Below are positions 207 through 45,851 of a stretch of 64,000 bases of DNA, piece by piece. The position numbers were made by a program, and so were the translations under genes. Below the pieces are notes generated by a model. That model saw only the letters and a program-made list of their open reading frames with translations, ran no database searches and had not been told where the DNA came from. Where the stretch lies: assembly GCF_054482525.1 (NCBI RefSeq), contig NZ_CM137006.1; one strand, 5' to 3'. How positions within the stretch are numbered: position 1 is the first letter of the stretch; every line of letters begins with the position of its first letter.

Positions 207-237
207 AACCCGAAGCCAGAATGACTGGCTTCGGGTG
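207..237. terminator. Stem-loop between convergent ygiD and dsbI (acccgaagccag / ctggcttcgggt)
   Basis: Perfect inverted repeat seen directly in sequence between two convergent stops. Confidence 0.6.
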
Positions 238-1617: not shown

Positions 1618-3414
1618 TTATTTGAACATCTGTTGTGGACGGACTAACAATGCACGATAGTGAGTCTGATTGGGTTTATCTGACAGCACGTCGATTTCCA
1701 CTTTCACTTCTTTGGTTTTGTAATCGATTTCGTTCAACTTACCGACGGTTGGCTGCCCGACATCGAACAAATGAATAGAACCACCGAAGCCAAACATGGT
1801 GTTACGGTCGGCTTGATATTCAATGATGGAGGTGATTGGGCTATAGAAATCGTAGCCACGTTCTTTACCGTATTCCCACACTTGCTGAACGGTGCCTTTC
1901 TTCTCATCAATCTTATATTCCACAAAGCGGGAGTATTTCATGGTTGGTAAGGCAGGTTGTTCCAGATGACGCCCATCGCCATTATCAAAAATGGTGAGCG
2001 TTCCTTTGCTGGAAATCCAGGCGGTATGCTGGGTGTAGGTAAAGTCGAAGTCTGAGTTTTCGCACAGGCCATTTTCGTTACAGGTAATTGGCTTACCGTT
2101 AGCATCAACCGGTTTCAGCAGCTTGCTGGCCAGCGGTTTTTCCCAACCTTTAGAGGGCGCAAGGATCCATTTCACTTGCTTATCACGACCAATCTTCACA
2201 ACACCCTGGTGACGAGAAGAGAGAATAATTGAGTCATCTTTTGCGTCATAAGCGATGGAATTAACGTGCGCCCAGTTACGGCCTGGCCCTACACCCAGAG
2301 CGTCGCCGAACGGTGTATCTGGTTCCAGTTTTGCCTGTTGTCCTGCATGGGCAAGGTCAACGTTAACGCAAACTGCACCTGCATCCAGCGCGCCGAGCAG
2401 TGCATCGCGTTTCGGATCGAGGATCTTCGTCAGATCCCATACATCGACAACGCGACCAGATTTATCGACTTCGAGGATATGGTCACGAATGGTGGTGACG
2501 TGTACGCCGTCATCGCGACGGTAATTGCTCTTACCTACGCGCAACAATACTGTGCCATTTGGCGTCTCAATGGATTCATGAGTAGCGTCAGCAAATCCGC
2601 GCGGTAGTTTGTGATCTTCGAGCACCTGCCCCATCATGTCGAACTCGTACCAGTGCTGACCTTGTACAGCGGTAAAGGTGCCGCGTGGCGTTTCGCGGAT
2701 ACCCATCAGATAACCACGCTTGTTGATATCGCGGTCACGACCATCGTAGAAAGTGTCTTGATCCAGCCACCAGCGGTATTCACCTTCGGTATCGACGATG
2801 AAAGTAAAGGGCGCGATATCAAAAGGGAGTGCGCCAGTTGCCGGACCCGCATCAAGGATACCGGCATTTTTATCTTTCTCACCATGCCAGTGGAGATCGG
2901 AACCTTGGGCGGTAAAGGTGTGGGTATTAACCAGATAGAGGCGATCTTCAAAACCTGGCGCGACTTTAACGACTTTGGTTTGCTGTAGGTCGGAGATGGA
3001 GCGGTTATCCATGTAATTGTTGACGATGGCCGAAGTGTGCACCACATAATCATCTTTCATGACCTTGCCGTTTTCTTTCCACTCAACGGTCACTTTGTTA
3101 GCAAATTTCTGATAAAGACCAAAAATCGGTACACCATCGTAAGTTTTTAGTGATTCCTGACCCACGGGATAGCTGATTTCTACGCCTTTTTCGCCCTTCC
3201 CATGGACGGTAACTTTGACGTCAGAAATAACATGGCTATCTAAGTCAACCAAAGCGGTCAGTGGTGCATTGCCGTAGGGATCGACAATGACCGCACCCAG
3301 TTGCCCGGCAGGCGGCGCTGGTTTAAAACCCGCAGCCATCACCCCCGATGCTGACAAACCCAGGGTTATCGCCACAGTTCCGGCTACGAGTGTTTTTCTA
3401 TATTTATCAAACAT
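1618..3414 (-). CDS. assT: Periplasmic arylsulfate sulfotransferase
   Basis: 598-aa ORF with signal peptide; sequence recognised as ASST family; operon with dsbL/dsbI. Confidence 0.85.
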   Translation of the reverse strand: MFDKYRKTLVAGTVAITLGLSASGVMAAGFKPAPPAGQLGAVIVDPYGNAPLTALVDLDSHVISDVKVTVHGKGEKGVEISYPVGQESLKTYDGVPIFGLYQKFANKVTVEWKENGKVMKDDYVVHTSAIVNNYMDNRSISDLQQTKVVKVAPGFEDRLYLVNTHTFTAQGSDLHWHGEKDKNAGILDAGPATGALPFDIAPFTFIVDTEGEYRWWLDQDTFYDGRDRDINKRGYLMGIRETPRGTFTAVQGQHWYEFDMMGQVLEDHKLPRGFADATHESIETPNGTVLLRVGKSNYRRDDGVHVTTIRDHILEVDKSGRVVDVWDLTKILDPKRDALLGALDAGAVCVNVDLAHAGQQAKLEPDTPFGDALGVGPGRNWAHVNSIAYDAKDDSIILSSRHQGVVKIGRDKQVKWILAPSKGWEKPLASKLLKPVDANGKPITCNENGLCENSDFDFTYTQHTAWISSKGTLTIFDNGDGRHLEQPALPTMKYSRFVEYKIDEKKGTVQQVWEYGKERGYDFYSPITSIIEYQADRNTMFGFGGSIHLFDVGQPTVGKLNEIDYKTKEVKVEIDVLSDKPNQTHYRALLVRPQQMFK

Positions 3415-3864
3415 GGATATATCTCCTTATATAACGCAAATATATAATAATGATGAATATCGACTGTTGAGAGGGTGCTAATAAATTCGTTACGTGAATA
3501 TAAATATTAATTCAATAAAGAGTGAGAATGCTTTTGTGTTTCTTTTAAATATGTTGTTATTCGGTGAAACAAATATTTATGTTTAATGGATAGTAGGTGG
3601 GCAATATATCAATCACAATGTTCAATACTGTGTAGTGTGATCCCTGCAACATTGTTTTTTAATTATTAAATTTAAATCTGGTGAGATAAAAGTAAAGTAT
3701 TTAAATAATATCAAATAGTTATGTTGTGATGTATTCATTTACTTTAATTACAATATCGCTTGCATATGACGATTTAACATTAAATTGAGTATTAATGTTA
3801 AATAAAGGTTGGATATGTATGCGTTTATATATTGATGGGAATTATGAATGGTGGATTATAAGAG

Positions 3865-3898: not shown

Positions 3899-5059
3899 TT
3901 ACTCAACAAAAATATGCGGATAAAACCGAGACATATCCTGGGTGATCAATGCACGGTCTTCACGAATGCCAATTCCGGCAGGTTGATCGTTCACCAGCCA
4001 GCTACCAATCAGCATATAGCTGTCGCCGAATTTCGGTAACGGGTGGAATTGCTGAACAATCATCCCTTCTTCGCCATACGGACCTTCCGCTGCTTCAATG
4101 GTTTTGCCGTTCTCAATGATCGACACGTTTGCGCCTTCACGGGAGAAGATCGGTTTAACCACATATTTTTCCATTTGCGGATGATCATCTTCCGCAAAAT
4201 AAGCGGGCAGCAGGTTCGGGTGATTCGGGAACATCTCCCACAGTAGCGGTAGAAGCGCTTTGTTGGAGATAATGCTCTTCCACGCCGGTTCCAGCCAGCG
4301 TACGCCTGCATCCTCCAGCTTGGTGGAGAACATCTCACGCAACATAAATTCCCACGGATACAGCTTGAACAGGTTGGAAATCACCTGATCCTGTAAATCC
4401 GTGAACTGACCTTTTTCACCTAACCCGATATCGTCGATGTAGAGGAACTCGGTAGCGATTTCAGCTTCCGTCGCGCAGTCCTGCAAATACTGAATGGTTC
4501 CGCGATCTTCCACCGTGTCGCGACAGCAGGTGAGATGCAGCAACTGGAAGCCATACTGTTCACGCAGCTCAACGAAGCGATCGATCAGCTTTTCTTGCAA
4601 ACTGTTAAACTGGTCGCTGCCCTCCGGCAAGTTACCGGCGTTAAGCTGATCTTCCAGCCAGATCCACTGAAAGAACGCCGCCTCGTATAGTGACGTTGGC
4701 GTATCGGCGTTATTTTCCAGAAGTTTAGGTTCGCCAGTGCCATCCCACGCCAGATCAAGACGCGAATAAAGCGATGGCTGGTGCGTCAGCCATGACTGGC
4801 GCACAAAACTCCAGGTGTGTTTTGGTATGCGGAATTTGGTCATCAGCTCATCGCTGGCGATCACTTTTTCCACCACTTTCAGGCACATCTGGTGCAGTTC
4901 GGCGGTGACTTCTTCCAGCTTTTCAACCTGAGCGAGGGTCAACTTGTAGTAAGCATCTTCACACCAGTACGGCTCGCCGTACATGGTGTGAAAATTGAAA
5001 CCGTATTCGTGGGCTTTTTCGCGCCAGTCCGGGCGCTCGGTAATACTGACTCTTTCCAT
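3899..5059 (-). CDS. ygiC: Glutathionylspermidine synthase-like ATP-grasp protein YgiC
   Basis: 386-aa ORF; homologous to synthetase half of Gss; tolC-ygiB-ygiC order. Confidence 0.9.
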
Positions 5060-12004: not shown

Positions 12005-12037
12005 AGCCCGGTATACAAGTGTATACCGGGCTTTTTT
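12005..12037. terminator. Bidirectional rho-independent terminator (agcccggtatac..gtataccgggct + T-run)
   Basis: Perfect stem followed by TTTTTT between convergent parE and receptor gene. Confidence 0.75.
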
Positions 12038-29967: not shown

Positions 29968-30077
29968 TCTTCATACTCGCCCGAGGAGGGCGAGTATGGA
30001 ATACCTTTCGATTTCTCTTTCGTTCCGGCTTATAATCCCCGGCCTTTGATTATTTTTTTATCATTTCTGGAAGCAAA

Positions 30078-34601: not shown

Positions 34602-34705
34602 ACGTTCCTCCTTTATATGAACTCACCGGAGCAGGCTCCGGTGAGGTGTTGTGAACTTAAGTCTGGACGAAATGCCCGAAAACGAAAGTTTGAGGCGTAA
34701 AAAGC

Positions 34706-40411: not shown

Positions 40412-40446
40412 ATGCCCGGTTGCTTTTCACAACCGGGCATTTTTTT
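40412..40446. terminator. Bidirectional rho-independent terminator (gcccggttg...caaccgggc + T-run)
   Basis: Inverted repeat plus TTTTTTT between convergent exbD and yghA. Confidence 0.75.
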
Positions 40447-43094: not shown

Positions 43095-43250
43095 GACCTC
43101 TCCTTTCCACCGTTCAATTTCGAAACAATGTTTCTAGTTTAGCGATTCGCCAGCGCGTATCCCGTAGTCTGGCTCACAGAGTGACGAAAAACTGGGCAAA
43201 AACACGTGCTTATGCTTTGCTTAAAAAAACACCAGCTGAGGAGTGCAACG

Positions 43251-44138
43251 ATGCCGCGTTTAACCGCCAAAGATTTCCCACAAGAGTTGCTGGATTACTA
43301 CGACTATTACGCTCACGGGAAAATCTCGAAACGTGAGTTCCTCAACCTTGCGGCGAAGTATGCGGTGGGCGGGATGACGGCATTAGCGTTGTTTGATTTG
43401 CTCAAGCCAAATTATGCGCTGGCGACTCAGGTAGAGTTTACCGACCCGGAAATTGTTGCTGAGTACATCACGTATCCTTCGCCAAATGGTCACGGCGAGG
43501 TGCGGGGTTATCTGGTGAAGCCCGCAAAGATGAGCGGCAAAACGCCAGCCGTGGTGGTGGTGCATGAGAATCGTGGACTGAATCCGTATATCGAAGATGT
43601 GGCACGGCGAGTGGCGAAGGCGGGGTATATCGCCCTGGCTCCTGACGGCTTAAGTTCCGTTGGAGGTTATCCGGGTAATGATGATAAAGGTCGTGAGCTG
43701 CAACAGCAGGTTGATCCAACCAAACTGATGAATGATTTCTTTGCCGCAATTGAGTTTATGCAAAGCTATCCGCAAGCGACAGGCAAAGTGGGTATTACTG
43801 GATTTTGCTATGGCGGTGGCGTATCGAACGCGGCAGCGGTCGCTTACCCGGAACTGGCCTGCGCGGTGCCGTTTTATGGTCGTCAGGCACCCACTGCCGA
43901 TGTGGCGAAGATTGAAGCGCCTTTACTACTCCACTACGCGGAACTGGACACCCGAATCAACGAGGGCTGGCCTGCTTACGAGGCGGCGTTGAAAGCCAAT
44001 AATAAGGTCTATGAGGCGTATATCTATCCGGGGGTTAATCACGGATTCCATAATGATTCCACGCCCCGTTATGACAAATCTGCCGCCGATCTTGCCTGGC
44101 AAAGGACGCTGAAATGGTTCGATAAATATCTCTCCTGA
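43251..44138 (+). CDS. yghX: Dienelactone hydrolase family protein YghX (intact here)
   Basis: ORF track 43206..44138; likely start MPRLTAKDF; alpha/beta hydrolase. Confidence 0.75.
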   Translation: MPRLTAKDFPQELLDYYDYYAHGKISKREFLNLAAKYAVGGMTALALFDLLKPNYALATQVEFTDPEIVAEYITYPSPNGHGEVRGYLVKPAKMSGKTPAVVVVHENRGLNPYIEDVARRVAKAGYIALAPDGLSSVGGYPGNDDKGRELQQQVDPTKLMNDFFAAIEFMQSYPQATGKVGITGFCYGGGVSNAAAVAYPELACAVPFYGRQAPTADVAKIEAPLLLHYAELDTRINEGWPAYEAALKANNKVYEAYIYPGVNHGFHNDSTPRYDKSAADLAWQRTLKWFDKYLS

Positions 44139-44218
44139 TGGGTTTATCTCTTACAGGATTACGTCTTAAACAAGCATGAAAAAATAGCGTGCGCAAATGT
44201 CGTTCTTTGCCTAAAATA

Positions 44219-44244
44219 TCGCTATATATGACAATATATAGCGA
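44219..44244. promoter_or_regulatory. Perfect 11-bp inverted repeat tcgctatatat-gaca-atatatagcga upstream of yghW
   Basis: Seen directly; ends 13 bp before yghW start codon. Confidence 0.4.
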
Positions 44245-44256
44245 ATGAGGTGAACG

Positions 44257-44544
44257 ATGAATAACCATTTTGGTAAAGGCTTAATGGCGGGATTAAAAGC
44301 AACGCATGCCGACAGTGCGGTTAATGTGACAAAATTCTGTGCCGATTATAAACGCGGTTTTGTATTAGGCTACTCACACCGGATGTACGAAAAGACCGGA
44401 GATCGCCAGCTTAGCGCCTGGGAAGCGGGTATTCTGACGCGCCGTTATGGACTGGATAAAGAGATGGTAATGGATTTCTTTCGTGAGAATAATTCCTGTT
44501 CTACGTTGCGCTTTTTTATGGCCGGTTATCGCCTAGAAAATTGA
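44257..44544 (+). CDS. yghW: DUF2623 protein YghW
   Basis: 95-aa ORF recognised. Confidence 0.8.
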
Positions 44545-44732
44545 TCAAACATACGTATTATCTTGCTTTAATTAATTACACTAATGCTTCTTCCCTTCGT
44601 TTTAGTGCCCCGCCGCAGTATCATGATATCGATAACCATAATAAATGTGTGGTAAATGGCGCATCGATCGCATTATTGATTTTGCGATTGAGGCAAAATA
44701 TATGCCAGGTCTTCGCAACGGAATAACTATAA

Positions 44733-45851
44733 ATGACTGGAGATAACACCCTCATCCATTCTCACGGCATTAACCGTCGTGATTTCATGAAGCTTTGTGC
44801 AGCATTAGCCGCCACCATGGGGTTAAGTAGCAAAGCCGCTGCAGAGATGGCCGAATCGGTTACTAACCCGCAGCGTCCGCCAGTTATCTGGATTGGCGCG
44901 CAGGAGTGTACCGGTTGTACGGAATCTCTGCTTCGTGCAACGCATCCAACGGTAGAAAACCTCGTGCTGGAGACTATCTCTCTGGAGTATCACGAAGTGC
45001 TTTCCGCCGCCTTCGGTCATCAGGTCGAAGAGAACAAACATAACGCTCTCGAGAAGTACAAAGGGCAGTATGTGTTAGTGGTGGATGGTTCCATCCCATT
45101 AAAAGATAACGGTATTTATTGCATGGTTGCCGGTGAGCCGATTGTGGATCACATCCGCAAAGCGGCGGAAGGCGCAGCAGCCATTATCGCTATCGGTTCC
45201 TGCTCTGCGTGGGGCGGTGTTGCCGCGGCTGGGGTTAACCCAACTGGCGCGGTCAGTCTGCAAGAAGTTCTGCCAGGCAAAACTGTAATCAACATTCCTG
45301 GCTGCCCGCCGAACCCGCACAACTTTCTAGCGACCGTTGCGCACATCATCACTTACGGCAAGCCGCCGAAACTGGATGACAAAAACCGTCCGACTTTCGC
45401 CTACGGTCGTCTGATTCACGAACACTGCGAACGTCGCCCGCACTTCGATGCTGGTCGTTTTGCCAAAGAGTTCGGTGATGAAGGCCACCGCGAAGGCTGG
45501 TGCCTGTACCACCTCGGCTGTAAAGGGCCAGAAACTTACGGCAACTGCTCAACGCTGCAATTCTGCGATGTTGGCGGTGTGTGGCCGGTGGCGATTGGTC
45601 ACCCGTGCTATGGCTGTAACGAAGAAGGTATCGGCTTCCATAAAGGCATCCATCAGCTTGCCAACGTCGAAAACCAGACTCCGCGTTCACAGAAACCGGA
45701 TGTTAACGCTAAAGAAGGCGGCAACGTCTCGGCAGGCGCTATTGGTTTGCTCGGCGGTGTGGTTGGGCTGGTTGCCGGTGTCAGCGTGATGGCGGTGCGT
45801 GAACTGGGTCGTCAGCAAAAGAAAGATAACGCTGACTCACGGGGAGAATAA
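44733..45851 (+). CDS. hybO: Hydrogenase-2 small subunit (Tat signal)
   Basis: 372-aa ORF with RRDFMK twin-arginine motif and C-terminal TM anchor. Confidence 0.95.

What the first reader, a model, noticed from the sequence alone, without database searches (positions are those of the whole stretch)
44219..44244. Perfect 11-bp palindrome directly upstream of yghW
tcgctatatat-gaca-atatatagcga is a perfect inverted repeat with a 4-bp spacer, ending 13 bp before the yghW start codon, in the region between yghX and the hyb operon. The symmetry suggests a dimeric regulator operator, or an attenuator hairpin, controlling yghW.
Basis: seen in the sequence. Interest (0 to 1): 0.35.

Follow-up and report, generated by a model that had tools for sequence, protein, structure and literature searches.

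The report
ModE molybdate operator at yghW promoter
The palindrome is a near-perfect binding site for ModE, the molybdate-sensing regulator of E. coli, lying on the yghW promoter; it is real and strongly conserved, but ModE control at the yghW locus has already been published.

Summary
In detail: TCGCTATATAT-GACA-ATATATAGCGA at 44219-44244 is a perfect 11+11 inverted repeat, 12 nt before the yghW ATG. Read as half-sites with a 6-bp spacer (44218-44245, ATCGCTATATA-TGACAA-TATATAGCGAa), it matches the published E. coli ModE consensus ATCGNTATATA-N6-TATATANCGAT at 21 of 22 specified positions. That is better than the matches I found in the K-12 modA and moaA upstream regions (18/22 each). A box with at most 3 mismatches, always with a 6-bp spacer, precedes yghW in all 80 other Enterobacteriaceae species examined, although the neighbouring genes differ. 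The only freely varying arm position is the consensus 'N'. It varies without compensation, and predicted hairpin stability ranges from -12.9 to -5.2 kcal/mol. So selection acts on DNA sequence, not RNA pairing. The box abuts the Shine-Dalgarno sequence, so for any yghW promoter it lies at or downstream of about -15, which is a repressor position. A Salmonella transcriptome study groups yghW with modABC in a 'molybdate' module. The likely mechanism is that molybdate-bound ModE dimer represses yghW, with derepression under molybdenum starvation. ModE control at this locus was already published (Kurata et al. 2013, yghW/morA). Verdict: real, operator reading supported, hairpin reading rejected, already known, low interest.

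The parts
44218..44245 (.). ModE box: ATCGCTATATA-TGACAA-TATATAGCGAa, two 11-bp half-sites with a 6-bp spacer.
   Evidence: It matches the consensus ATCGNTATATA-N6-TATATANCGAT (PMC545781) at 21/22 specified positions. The sequence is identical in K-12. A box is present upstream of yghW in all 80 related loci.
44218..44228 (.). Left half-site ATCGCTATATA
   Evidence: Alignment columns 13-23 of A2. C15, G16, T18, T20 and T22 are invariant; T14, A19, A21 and A23 are at least 90% conserved.
44229..44234 (.). 6-bp spacer TGACAA (the consensus N6)
   Evidence: The length is 6 in all 81 sequences. The sequence varies within Escherichia (TGACAA, TGTTTA, TTTTTG, TTGTAA, TAATTA, TGGCGA). In at least 90% of the 81 aligned sequences (nearly all of the non-Escherichia ones) its first three bases are ATT, which completes a + strand TATAAT.
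44235..44245 (.). Right half-site TATATAGCGAa
   Evidence: Alignment columns 30-40 of A2. T30, A33, T34, A35 and G38 are invariant. The last base is A here, where the consensus has T.
44207..44235 (+). Candidate sigma-70 promoter of yghW: TTGCCT (44207-44212), 17 nt, GACAAT (44230-44235). Its -10 hexamer lies inside the ModE box.
   Evidence: The RpoD-holoenzyme genomic SELEX paper lists this promoter for yghW (PMC3946193). My relaxed scan recovers it at 8/12. It is a prediction; no transcription start site data were available here.
44233..44261 (-). Candidate minus-strand promoter: TTCATC (44261-44256), 17 nt, TATATT (44238-44233). Its -10 hexamer also lies inside the box.
   Evidence: Relaxed consensus scan, 8/12. 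It could correspond to the ModE-controlled antisense promoter (morA) of Kurata et al. 2013, but that paper could not be read here.
44247..44252 (+). Shine-Dalgarno region GAGGTG of yghW
   Evidence: Read directly from the sequence. A purine-rich GRGG block occupies this place in the alignment.
44257..44544 (+). yghW, a 95-aa DUF2623 protein and the conserved downstream target of the box
   Evidence: PF11115, E=5.5e-53. RefSeq annotates it as yghW.
44213..44217 (.). Conserved A-rich tract immediately upstream of the box. On the minus strand it reads as a U-run following the hairpin.
   Evidence: Columns 9-10 of A2 are at least 90% A. The terminator-like scan hits the minus strand only. Its function is unexplained.
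44222..44302 (-). 26-codon TTG-initiated ORF antisense to yghW codons 1-16, with its stop codon inside the box. It is a possible antisense peptide gene and its membership of this system is uncertain.
   Evidence: The ORF is open with TTG only in the window, L002, L003 and L004 (Escherichia). Elsewhere it is lost or changed.

Best explanation
The palindrome is a high-affinity operator for ModE, the homodimeric molybdate-sensing transcription factor. [quoted passage not shown] Each monomer reads one half-site (ATCGnTATATA), and the half-sites are separated by a fixed 6-bp spacer. The box sits directly against the yghW ribosome-binding site and overlaps the candidate -10 hexamer. Molybdate-bound ModE would therefore occlude RNA polymerase, or block elongation from any upstream start, and repress yghW. 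When molybdate is scarce, ModE's DNA affinity falls and yghW is derepressed together with modABC. Shown here: the sequence match, the family-wide conservation, the DNA-level rather than RNA-level constraint, and the geometry. Taken from literature: the ModE consensus, ModE's properties, co-expression of yghW with modABC in Salmonella, and the existence of a 2013 ModE genomic SELEX paper naming yghW/morA. Inferred: the direction of regulation (repression) and the exact promoter.
For: (1) The box matches the E. coli ModE consensus ATCGNTATATA-[N6]-TATATANCGAT (PMC545781) at 21/22 positions. The best matches in the K-12 modA and moaA upstream regions score only 18/22. They lie where I recall the footprinted operators lying, but I did not check them against footprint coordinates.
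(2) This is the only such site in the 64-kb window; the next best has 4 mismatches. The 24-nt core pattern with 0 mismatches has 0.11 expected matches even when 3 mismatches are allowed.
(3) All 80 orthologous loci plus the window carry a box with at most 3/22 mismatches. 48 are perfect, the spacer is always 6, and the box ends 10-21 nt before the start codon, except 73 nt in one locus. Conservation collapses outside the box.
(4) The flanking genes differ among genera: yghX, a chemoreceptor gene, divergent gpr or a divergent small membrane-protein gene upstream; hybO or convergent yghU downstream. The box therefore travels with yghW.
(5) The only freely variable arm position is the consensus N, and it is unpaired in 31 of 77 distinct sequences.
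(6) The Shine-Dalgarno sequence starts 2 nt after the box. For any yghW transcript the box centre is therefore at or downstream of about -15, a repressor position. This resembles modA (box 17 nt before the ATG) and differs from moaA (173 nt before the ATG, ModE-activated).
(7) The Salmonella Typhimurium 'molybdate iModulon' contains modA, modB, modC and yghW (PMC9764980).
(8) Two papers cite Kurata et al. [quoted passage not shown]
Against: No binding or expression experiment could be run or read here. The primary paper (Kurata 2013) is not in the library. As I recall its abstract, it assigns the ModE-controlled promoter at this locus to the strand antisense to yghW (morA), not to yghW itself. 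The E. coli + strand -10 candidates are weak: TATATG in the box, or GACAAT, which becomes GGCGAT in strain 6817. No transcription start site data were available. iModulon membership is a correlation, and the sign of the yghW weight was not retrievable. The presence of modE in the 80 other genomes was assumed, not checked.
Confidence: 0.9

Rival explanations
1. In E. coli the same ModE box mainly, or additionally, controls a minus-strand promoter that drives an antisense gene (morA), rather than yghW. ModE would then be a regulator of antisense transcription at this locus. This reading is compatible with the box being a ModE operator. It competes only over which gene is the target.
For: Kurata et al. 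2013 is cited for a 'yghW/morA' overlapping pair under ModE control. My recollection of the abstract is that the morA promoter is on the strand antisense to yghW. In this window the best -10-like hexamer in the box is on the minus strand (TATATT with TTCATC at 17 nt). A 26-codon TTG ORF antisense to the yghW 5' end exists.
Against: The antisense ORF is kept only in Escherichia. In contrast, the box and yghW are linked at a fixed short distance in 81 of 81 genomes. Outside Escherichia the asymmetric conservation of spacer bases ATT creates TATAAT on the yghW strand, while the mirror positions vary. Salmonella data report yghW mRNA itself in the molybdate module.
Confidence: 0.3
2. The palindrome acts as an RNA hairpin in the yghW 5' leader, as an attenuator or a translational or stability element next to the Shine-Dalgarno sequence.
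For: The 26-nt hairpin is predicted to be stable in E. coli (-12.9 kcal/mol, z=-5.4). In a 91-nt context an outer helix pairs upstream CUUUGCC with the Shine-Dalgarno region. Read-through transcripts from yghX would contain it.
Against: There is no compensatory pattern. 10 of 11 pairs are essentially invariant in sequence. The one variable pair is broken in 31 of 77 sequences. Stability drops to -5.2 kcal/mol in the commonest non-Escherichia variant, whose ModE match is perfect. No U-run follows on the + strand. There is no Rfam match. The candidate -10 hexamers lie inside the palindrome, so a transcript from yghW's own promoter would lack the 5' arm.
Confidence: 0.04
3. The palindrome plus the adjacent T-run on the minus strand is an intrinsic terminator for antisense or convergent transcription coming through yghW.
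For: The terminator-like scan hits the minus strand: 11-pair stem, then TATTTTAG. The A-tract upstream of the box, which is a U-run on the minus strand, is at least 90% conserved at two positions. In Citrobacter it reads TTTTTTAA after the stem. The stop codon of the antisense TTG ORF lies in the stem.
Against: The stem has only 3 G-C pairs and is very AU-rich. Its stability is not conserved. Sequence-level invariance of the arms is not needed for a terminator. Convergent minus-strand genes downstream of yghW exist only in some genera.
Confidence: 0.06
4. The box is the operator of some other dimeric regulator, for example YghW repressing its own gene.
For: No regulator gene is linked to yghW in any context, which is the pattern expected for autoregulation by the small product itself.
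Against: The half-sites match ModE almost perfectly. The YghW model (pLDDT 88.6) is a six-helix bundle or solenoid. It has no helix-turn-helix or ribbon-helix-helix match and no significant structural neighbour. No NCBIfam or DNA-binding Pfam domain was found.
Confidence: 0.02

Closest known systems
ModE operator of the modABC promoter (E. coli)
   Same: It has the same inverted-repeat architecture: CGnTATAT half-sites with a 6-bp gap between the 11-bp half-sites. It occupies the same position immediately upstream of the ribosome-binding site (box ends 17 nt before the modA ATG, 11 nt before the yghW ATG). The inferred logic is the same, namely repression by molybdate-ModE. yghW is in the same expression module as modABC in Salmonella.
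   Different: The yghW box is much closer to the consensus: 21/22 against 18/22. The best match in the modA upstream region, gTCGTTATATtGTCGCCTAcATAACGtT, is an imperfect palindrome with almost no hairpin potential (-2.2 kcal/mol). The regulated product, YghW, has no known role in molybdenum metabolism.
ModE activation site of the moaABCDE S1 promoter (E. coli)
   Same: It has the same half-site motif and spacer: gaCGCTATATACATGATTAcATAGCGAa, 18/22.
   Different: [quoted passage not shown] The yghW box cannot occupy an activator position for yghW because it abuts the Shine-Dalgarno sequence.
yghW/morA locus of Kurata et al. 2013 (ModE genomic SELEX)
   Same: The locus and the regulator are the same. 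This is presumably the very site that paper recovered.
   Different: As I recall the abstract (the paper was not readable here), it attributes ModE control to a novel antisense gene, morA. The comparative data here point to yghW as the conserved target across Enterobacteriaceae.
Other TATATA-rich palindromic operators (LexA SOS box CTGT-N8-ACAG; NrdR box acaCwAtATaTwGtgt)
   Same: These are AT-rich alternating cores flanked by short G/C-containing specificity bases and bound by dimers. This comparison comes from my own knowledge.
   Different: The specificity bases differ (CGnT versus CTGT or CAC), and so does the overall length (24-28 bp with a 6-bp free spacer versus 16 bp). The box is not a match to either.

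Membership tests
ModE-binding site (ModE box) | Inverted repeat matching ATCGNTATATA-N6-TATATANCGAT | tested here: met
   21/22 specified positions at 44218-44245. The 24-nt core CGNTATATA-N6-TATATANCG matches with 0 mismatches. The consensus comes from PMC545781.
ModE-binding site (ModE box) | Fixed 6-bp spacer between the 11-bp half-sites | tested here: met
   With spacers of 5, 7 or 8 the best scores are 5 or more mismatches. The spacer is 6 in all 81 orthologous sequences.
ModE-binding site (ModE box) | Resemblance to ModE sites at known ModE-regulated operons of E. coli | tested here: met
   The best matches in the K-12 modA (L081 445-472) and moaA (L083 244-271) upstream regions share the CGnTATAT...AcATAnCG frame. 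I did not check these against footprint coordinates.
ModE-binding site (ModE box) | Target gene responds to molybdate or ModE | tested here: inconclusive
   The only support is from literature. yghW is listed with modABC in the Salmonella 'molybdate iModulon'. Gene weights were not retrievable. No E. coli expression data were accessible.
ModE-binding site (ModE box) | Physical binding by ModE, enhanced by molybdate | not testable with these tools
   The title of Kurata et al. 2013 and two citing papers indicate direct ModE control at yghW/morA. The paper itself is not held.
ModE-binding site (ModE box) | Site conserved in orthologous promoters of genomes that encode ModE | tested here: met
   81 of 81 sequences have at most 3 mismatches. 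The presence of modE in those genomes was assumed, not checked.
cis-regulatory RNA hairpin / attenuator | Base pairs maintained by compensatory change; structure rather than sequence conserved | tested here: not met
   10 of 11 pairs are essentially invariant in sequence (at most 2 of 77 differ) or vary mostly without compensation. The one freely variable pair (columns 17 and 36) is unpaired in 31 of 77 sequences. Free energy ranges from -12.9 to -5.2 kcal/mol. No Rfam family matches.
Rho-independent terminator | G+C-rich stem followed by a U-run on the transcribed strand | tested here: inconclusive
   On the + strand no U-run follows, so the feature is not met. On the - strand the scan passes (11 pairs, 3 G-C, 5 T in 8). 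However, the stem is AU-rich and there is no 3'-end evidence.

The most novel reading that the evidence does not exclude
yghW, not the Escherichia-specific antisense morA, is the ancient and conserved target of this operator. The yghW box matches the ModE consensus better than the modA and moaA sites. That would make YghW, a 95-aa all-helical protein with no structural relatives, a core molybdenum-starvation protein of Enterobacteriaceae with an as yet unknown role in molybdate or molybdenum-cofactor homeostasis. A second ModE-like box in front of a nearby periplasmic binding-protein gene in Lelliottia and Leclercia hints that the enterobacterial ModE regulon is larger than described.
Probability: 0.4. 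Interest if true: 0.4.

Novelty: already known. Interest (0 to 1): 0.12.

Why it matters
The palindrome itself settles nothing new. The ModE consensus has been known for over twenty years, and ModE control at the yghW locus was published in 2013. The residual value is twofold. First, it gives a clear example of how to separate a protein operator from an RNA hairpin by comparative sequence alone: invariant half-sites, a free 'N' position and spacer, and non-conserved folding energy. Second, it points at YghW (DUF2623) as a probable molybdenum-starvation-induced protein of unknown function, conserved with its operator across at least 20 named enterobacterial genera. This is a cheap and specific lead for anyone studying molybdenum homeostasis.

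Tried and rejected
- Rfam scan of 43900-44900 at E up to 10: only two chance-level hits elsewhere, nothing at the palindrome.
- A linked regulator gene: none was found. The neighbourhoods differ between genera.
- Attempts to open the primary literature all failed: Studholme & Pau 2003, Anderson 2000 and Kurata 2013, tried by DOI, PMID and PMC id.
- Text searches with 'ModE' are swamped by the English word 'mode'. A search for b2998/DUF2623/STM3142 returned only noise.
- The supplements of the Salmonella iModulon paper do not contain yghW or 'molybdate'.
- A second ModE box within or downstream of yghW that could serve an antisense promoter: none has fewer than 8/22 mismatches between 44257 and 44750.
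- The strict sigma-70 scan found no promoter at the box. Only a relaxed scan recovers 8/12 candidates on both strands.
- A genome-wide count of ModE boxes in E. coli could not be done with the available tools.

Full report
OBSERVATION. The window is E. coli. A 461-nt query around the site is 100% identical to several RefSeq chromosomes and is present in 5,422 of 5,426 complete genomes, annotated yghX and yghW. At 44219-44244 the sequence is TCGCTATATAT-GACA-ATATATAGCGA, a perfect 11+11 inverted repeat with a 4-nt centre. The yghW ATG is at 44257, so 12 nt separate them. GAGG at 44247-44250 is the Shine-Dalgarno sequence. yghX (43206-44138, intact here but a pseudogene in K-12) lies upstream and hybO (44733-) lies downstream. 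Perfect repeats of this size average 0.12 per dinucleotide-preserving shuffle of the window, against 8 distinct ones in the real sequence. The repeat is therefore not chance, though palindromes as such are not rare here.

WHAT IT IS. I collected yghW orthologues from one genome per species (80 loci from Escherichia, Citrobacter, Klebsiella, Raoultella, Kluyvera, Kosakonia, Salmonella, Cedecea, Buttiauxella, Shimwellia and others). The palindrome proved to be an island of near-invariant sequence in otherwise diverged upstream regions. A literature lead then identified it. A Salmonella transcriptome decomposition lists yghW with modA, modB and modC in a 'molybdate iModulon' (PMC9764980). The E. 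coli consensus for the molybdate regulator ModE is given as ATCGNTATATA-[N6]-TATATANCGAT (PMC545781, citing Studholme & Pau 2003). Re-read with a 6-bp spacer, window 44218-44245 is ATCGCTATATA-TGACAA-TATATAGCGAa, which is 21 of 22 specified positions. The sequence is identical in K-12. For comparison, the best matches in the K-12 modA upstream region (gTCGTTATATtGTCGCCTAcATAACGtT) and moaA upstream region (gaCGCTATATACATGATTAcATAGCGAa) score 18/22. In the whole 64-kb window the next best site has 4 mismatches.

CONSERVATION. All 81 sequences have a box with at most 3/22 mismatches: 48 perfect, 21 with one, 10 with two, 2 with three. The spacer is always 6 bp. The box ends 10-21 nt before the start codon, except 73 nt in one locus with an insertion. 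In 408 kb of fetched flanks only two other sites reach 5 or fewer mismatches (see 'In passing'). Gene neighbourhoods differ. Upstream there is yghX, a chemoreceptor gene, divergent gpr or a divergent small membrane-protein gene. Downstream there is hybO or convergent yghU. Box and yghW therefore form one mobile unit with its own promoter, and no regulator gene is linked to it.

DNA SITE OR RNA HAIRPIN. On the 81-sequence alignment, ten of the eleven arm pairs are essentially invariant in sequence or vary mostly without compensation. The one freely varying pair is exactly the consensus 'N' (alignment columns 17 and 36). It occurs as C-G 29, U-G 10, U-A 6, A-U 1 and unpaired 31 of 77 distinct sequences. 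Predicted hairpin energy is -12.9 kcal/mol in this window and -12.4 in Citrobacter. It is only -5.2 in the Kluyvera-type variant, the commonest among the non-Escherichia sequences, whose match to the ModE consensus is perfect. No U-run follows on the + strand, and Rfam has no match. Selection is thus on base identity in two half-sites with a free spacer and a free 'N', which is the signature of a protein operator.

HOW IT PROBABLY WORKS. [quoted passage not shown] It acts as activator or repressor, and it binds DNA more tightly with molybdate (PMC12327845). That it acts as a homodimer is from my own knowledge. The box ends 1 nt before the Shine-Dalgarno region, so every yghW mRNA must start at or before about 44246. 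The box centre (44231.5) is therefore at or downstream of about -15 for any yghW promoter. That is an occlusion or roadblock position, not an activator position. This mirrors modA (box 17 nt before the ATG). [quoted passage not shown] The RpoD-holoenzyme SELEX catalogue predicts the yghW promoter as TTGCCT-17-GACAAT (PMC3946193). That places the -35 at 44207-44212 and the -10 at 44230-44235, inside the box. In at least 90% of the aligned sequences (nearly all of the non-Escherichia ones) the first three spacer bases are ATT, completing a consensus TATAAT on the yghW strand, while the mirror spacer positions vary. I therefore conclude that molybdate-ModE represses yghW and that yghW is derepressed with modABC under molybdenum starvation. 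The direction of regulation is inferred, not shown.

WHAT IS ALREADY KNOWN, AND A CAVEAT. Two papers cite Kurata et al. [quoted passage not shown] RegulonDB 11 cites the same paper, though in what context I did not see. I could not open the paper. As I recall its abstract, genomic SELEX with ModE recovered this locus, and the ModE-dependent promoter was assigned to the strand antisense to yghW, driving a short peptide gene with an unusual start codon. In this window the better -10-like hexamer in the box is indeed on the minus strand (TATATT, with TTCATC 17 nt upstream). A 26-codon TTG ORF runs antisense to yghW codons 1-16 and stops inside the box (44302-44222). That ORF is kept only in Escherichia, whereas the box-yghW linkage is family-wide. 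My reading is that yghW is the conserved target and that any antisense gene is a lineage-specific addition. The two readings are not mutually exclusive, and only strand-specific start-site and reporter data can apportion them.

OTHER RIVALS. A minus-strand intrinsic terminator is formally suggested by the scan and by the conserved A-tract just upstream of the box. However, the stem is AU-rich, its stability is not conserved, and there is no 3'-end evidence. YghW as an autorepressor is unlikely. Its AlphaFold model (pLDDT 88.6, six helices) has no DNA-binding fold and no significant neighbour.

IN PASSING. The two non-yghW boxes lie 12-14 nt upstream of the ATG of a Peripla_BP_2 ABC substrate-binding protein, about 2.2 kb downstream of yghW, in Lelliottia (L036) and Leclercia (L053). 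One O157:H7 assembly (ATCC 43889) has a deletion of about 80 nt that removes the left half-site and the promoter region. Within E. coli the half-sites are constant while the spacer varies (TGACAA here and in K-12, TGGCGA in strain 6817, TTTTTG and TTGTAA in two other Escherichia-group genomes, L002 and L003).

VERDICT. The 'dimeric regulator operator' reading is supported and the regulator is ModE. The hairpin reading is rejected. The element is a textbook ModE box at a locus already tied to ModE in the literature, so novelty is 'already known' and interest is low. The only open and mildly interesting thread is the unknown function of YghW as a probable molybdenum-starvation protein.

Noticed in passing
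L036:4746-4773 and L053:4597-4624: A second ModE-consensus-like box (3/22 mismatches) lies 12-14 nt before the ATG of a Peripla_BP_2 (PF01497) ABC substrate-binding protein gene, about 2.2 kb downstream of yghW, in Lelliottia nimipressuralis and a Leclercia MAG. It is a candidate extra ModE regulon member. It may be related to the uncharacterised STM genes in the Salmonella molybdate iModulon, but this was not verified.
   Followed up: partly
L085:1500-1535 (E. coli ATCC 43889, NZ_CP015853.1): This O157:H7 assembly has a deletion of about 80 nt between the yghX stop and yghW. It removes the left half-site and the candidate -35, leaving ...cttacGATATATATCGAATGAGG. It is the only one of 5,421 matching genomes whose best match to the 76-nt query covers less than 80% of it.
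   Followed up: partly
window 44222-44302 (-): A 26-codon TTG-initiated ORF runs antisense to the first 16 codons of yghW, and its stop codon lies inside the ModE box. It is open with TTG only in Escherichia-group genomes. It is a possible candidate for the published antisense peptide MorA, but the paper could not be read to check.
   Followed up: partly
window 44229-44234 and alignment A2 columns 24-29: The 6-bp spacer of the box is hypervariable within Escherichia (TGACAA, TGTTTA, TTTTTG, TTGTAA, TAATTA, TGGCGA). In at least 90% of the aligned sequences (nearly all of the non-Escherichia ones) its first three bases are ATT, giving a perfect TATAAT on the yghW strand. Escherichia appears to have rewired the -10 element.
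   Followed up: partly
window 44213-44217; alignment A2 columns 8-12: An A-rich tract immediately upstream of the box is conserved across genera (two columns at least 90% A). The ModE consensus does not require it, and the modA and moaA sites lack it. On the minus strand it forms a U-run after the hairpin. Its function is unexplained.
   Followed up: no
[not shown]
   Followed up: partly
window 43206-44138: yghX (dienelactone hydrolase family, with an N-terminal YqhI-like segment) is an intact 310-codon ORF in this strain. In K-12 MG1655 it is annotated as a pseudogene with a separate yqhI CDS.
   Followed up: no
window 44200-44260 (+ strand RNA fold): If transcribed from upstream, for example by read-through from yghX, the E. 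coli sequence is predicted to pair CUUUGCC (44205-44211) with the Shine-Dalgarno region around the central hairpin (-28.4 kcal/mol for 91 nt, z=-4.4). The upstream arm is not conserved outside Escherichia and Citrobacter.
   Followed up: no
window 208-236, 3772-3803, 12005-12032, 29972-29998, 34622-34645, 40412-40440, 54295-54327: Seven other perfect inverted repeats of at least 11 bp with a spacer of at most 10 nt are present in the window. They are probably terminators or REP-like elements, but they were not examined.
   Followed up: no
window 3809-3836: The weak second-best match to the ModE consensus in the window is TTGGATATGTATGCGTTTATATATTGAT (4/22 mismatches), in the intergenic region between two minus-strand ORFs (1618-3414 and 3899-5059). 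It is probably chance.
   Followed up: no
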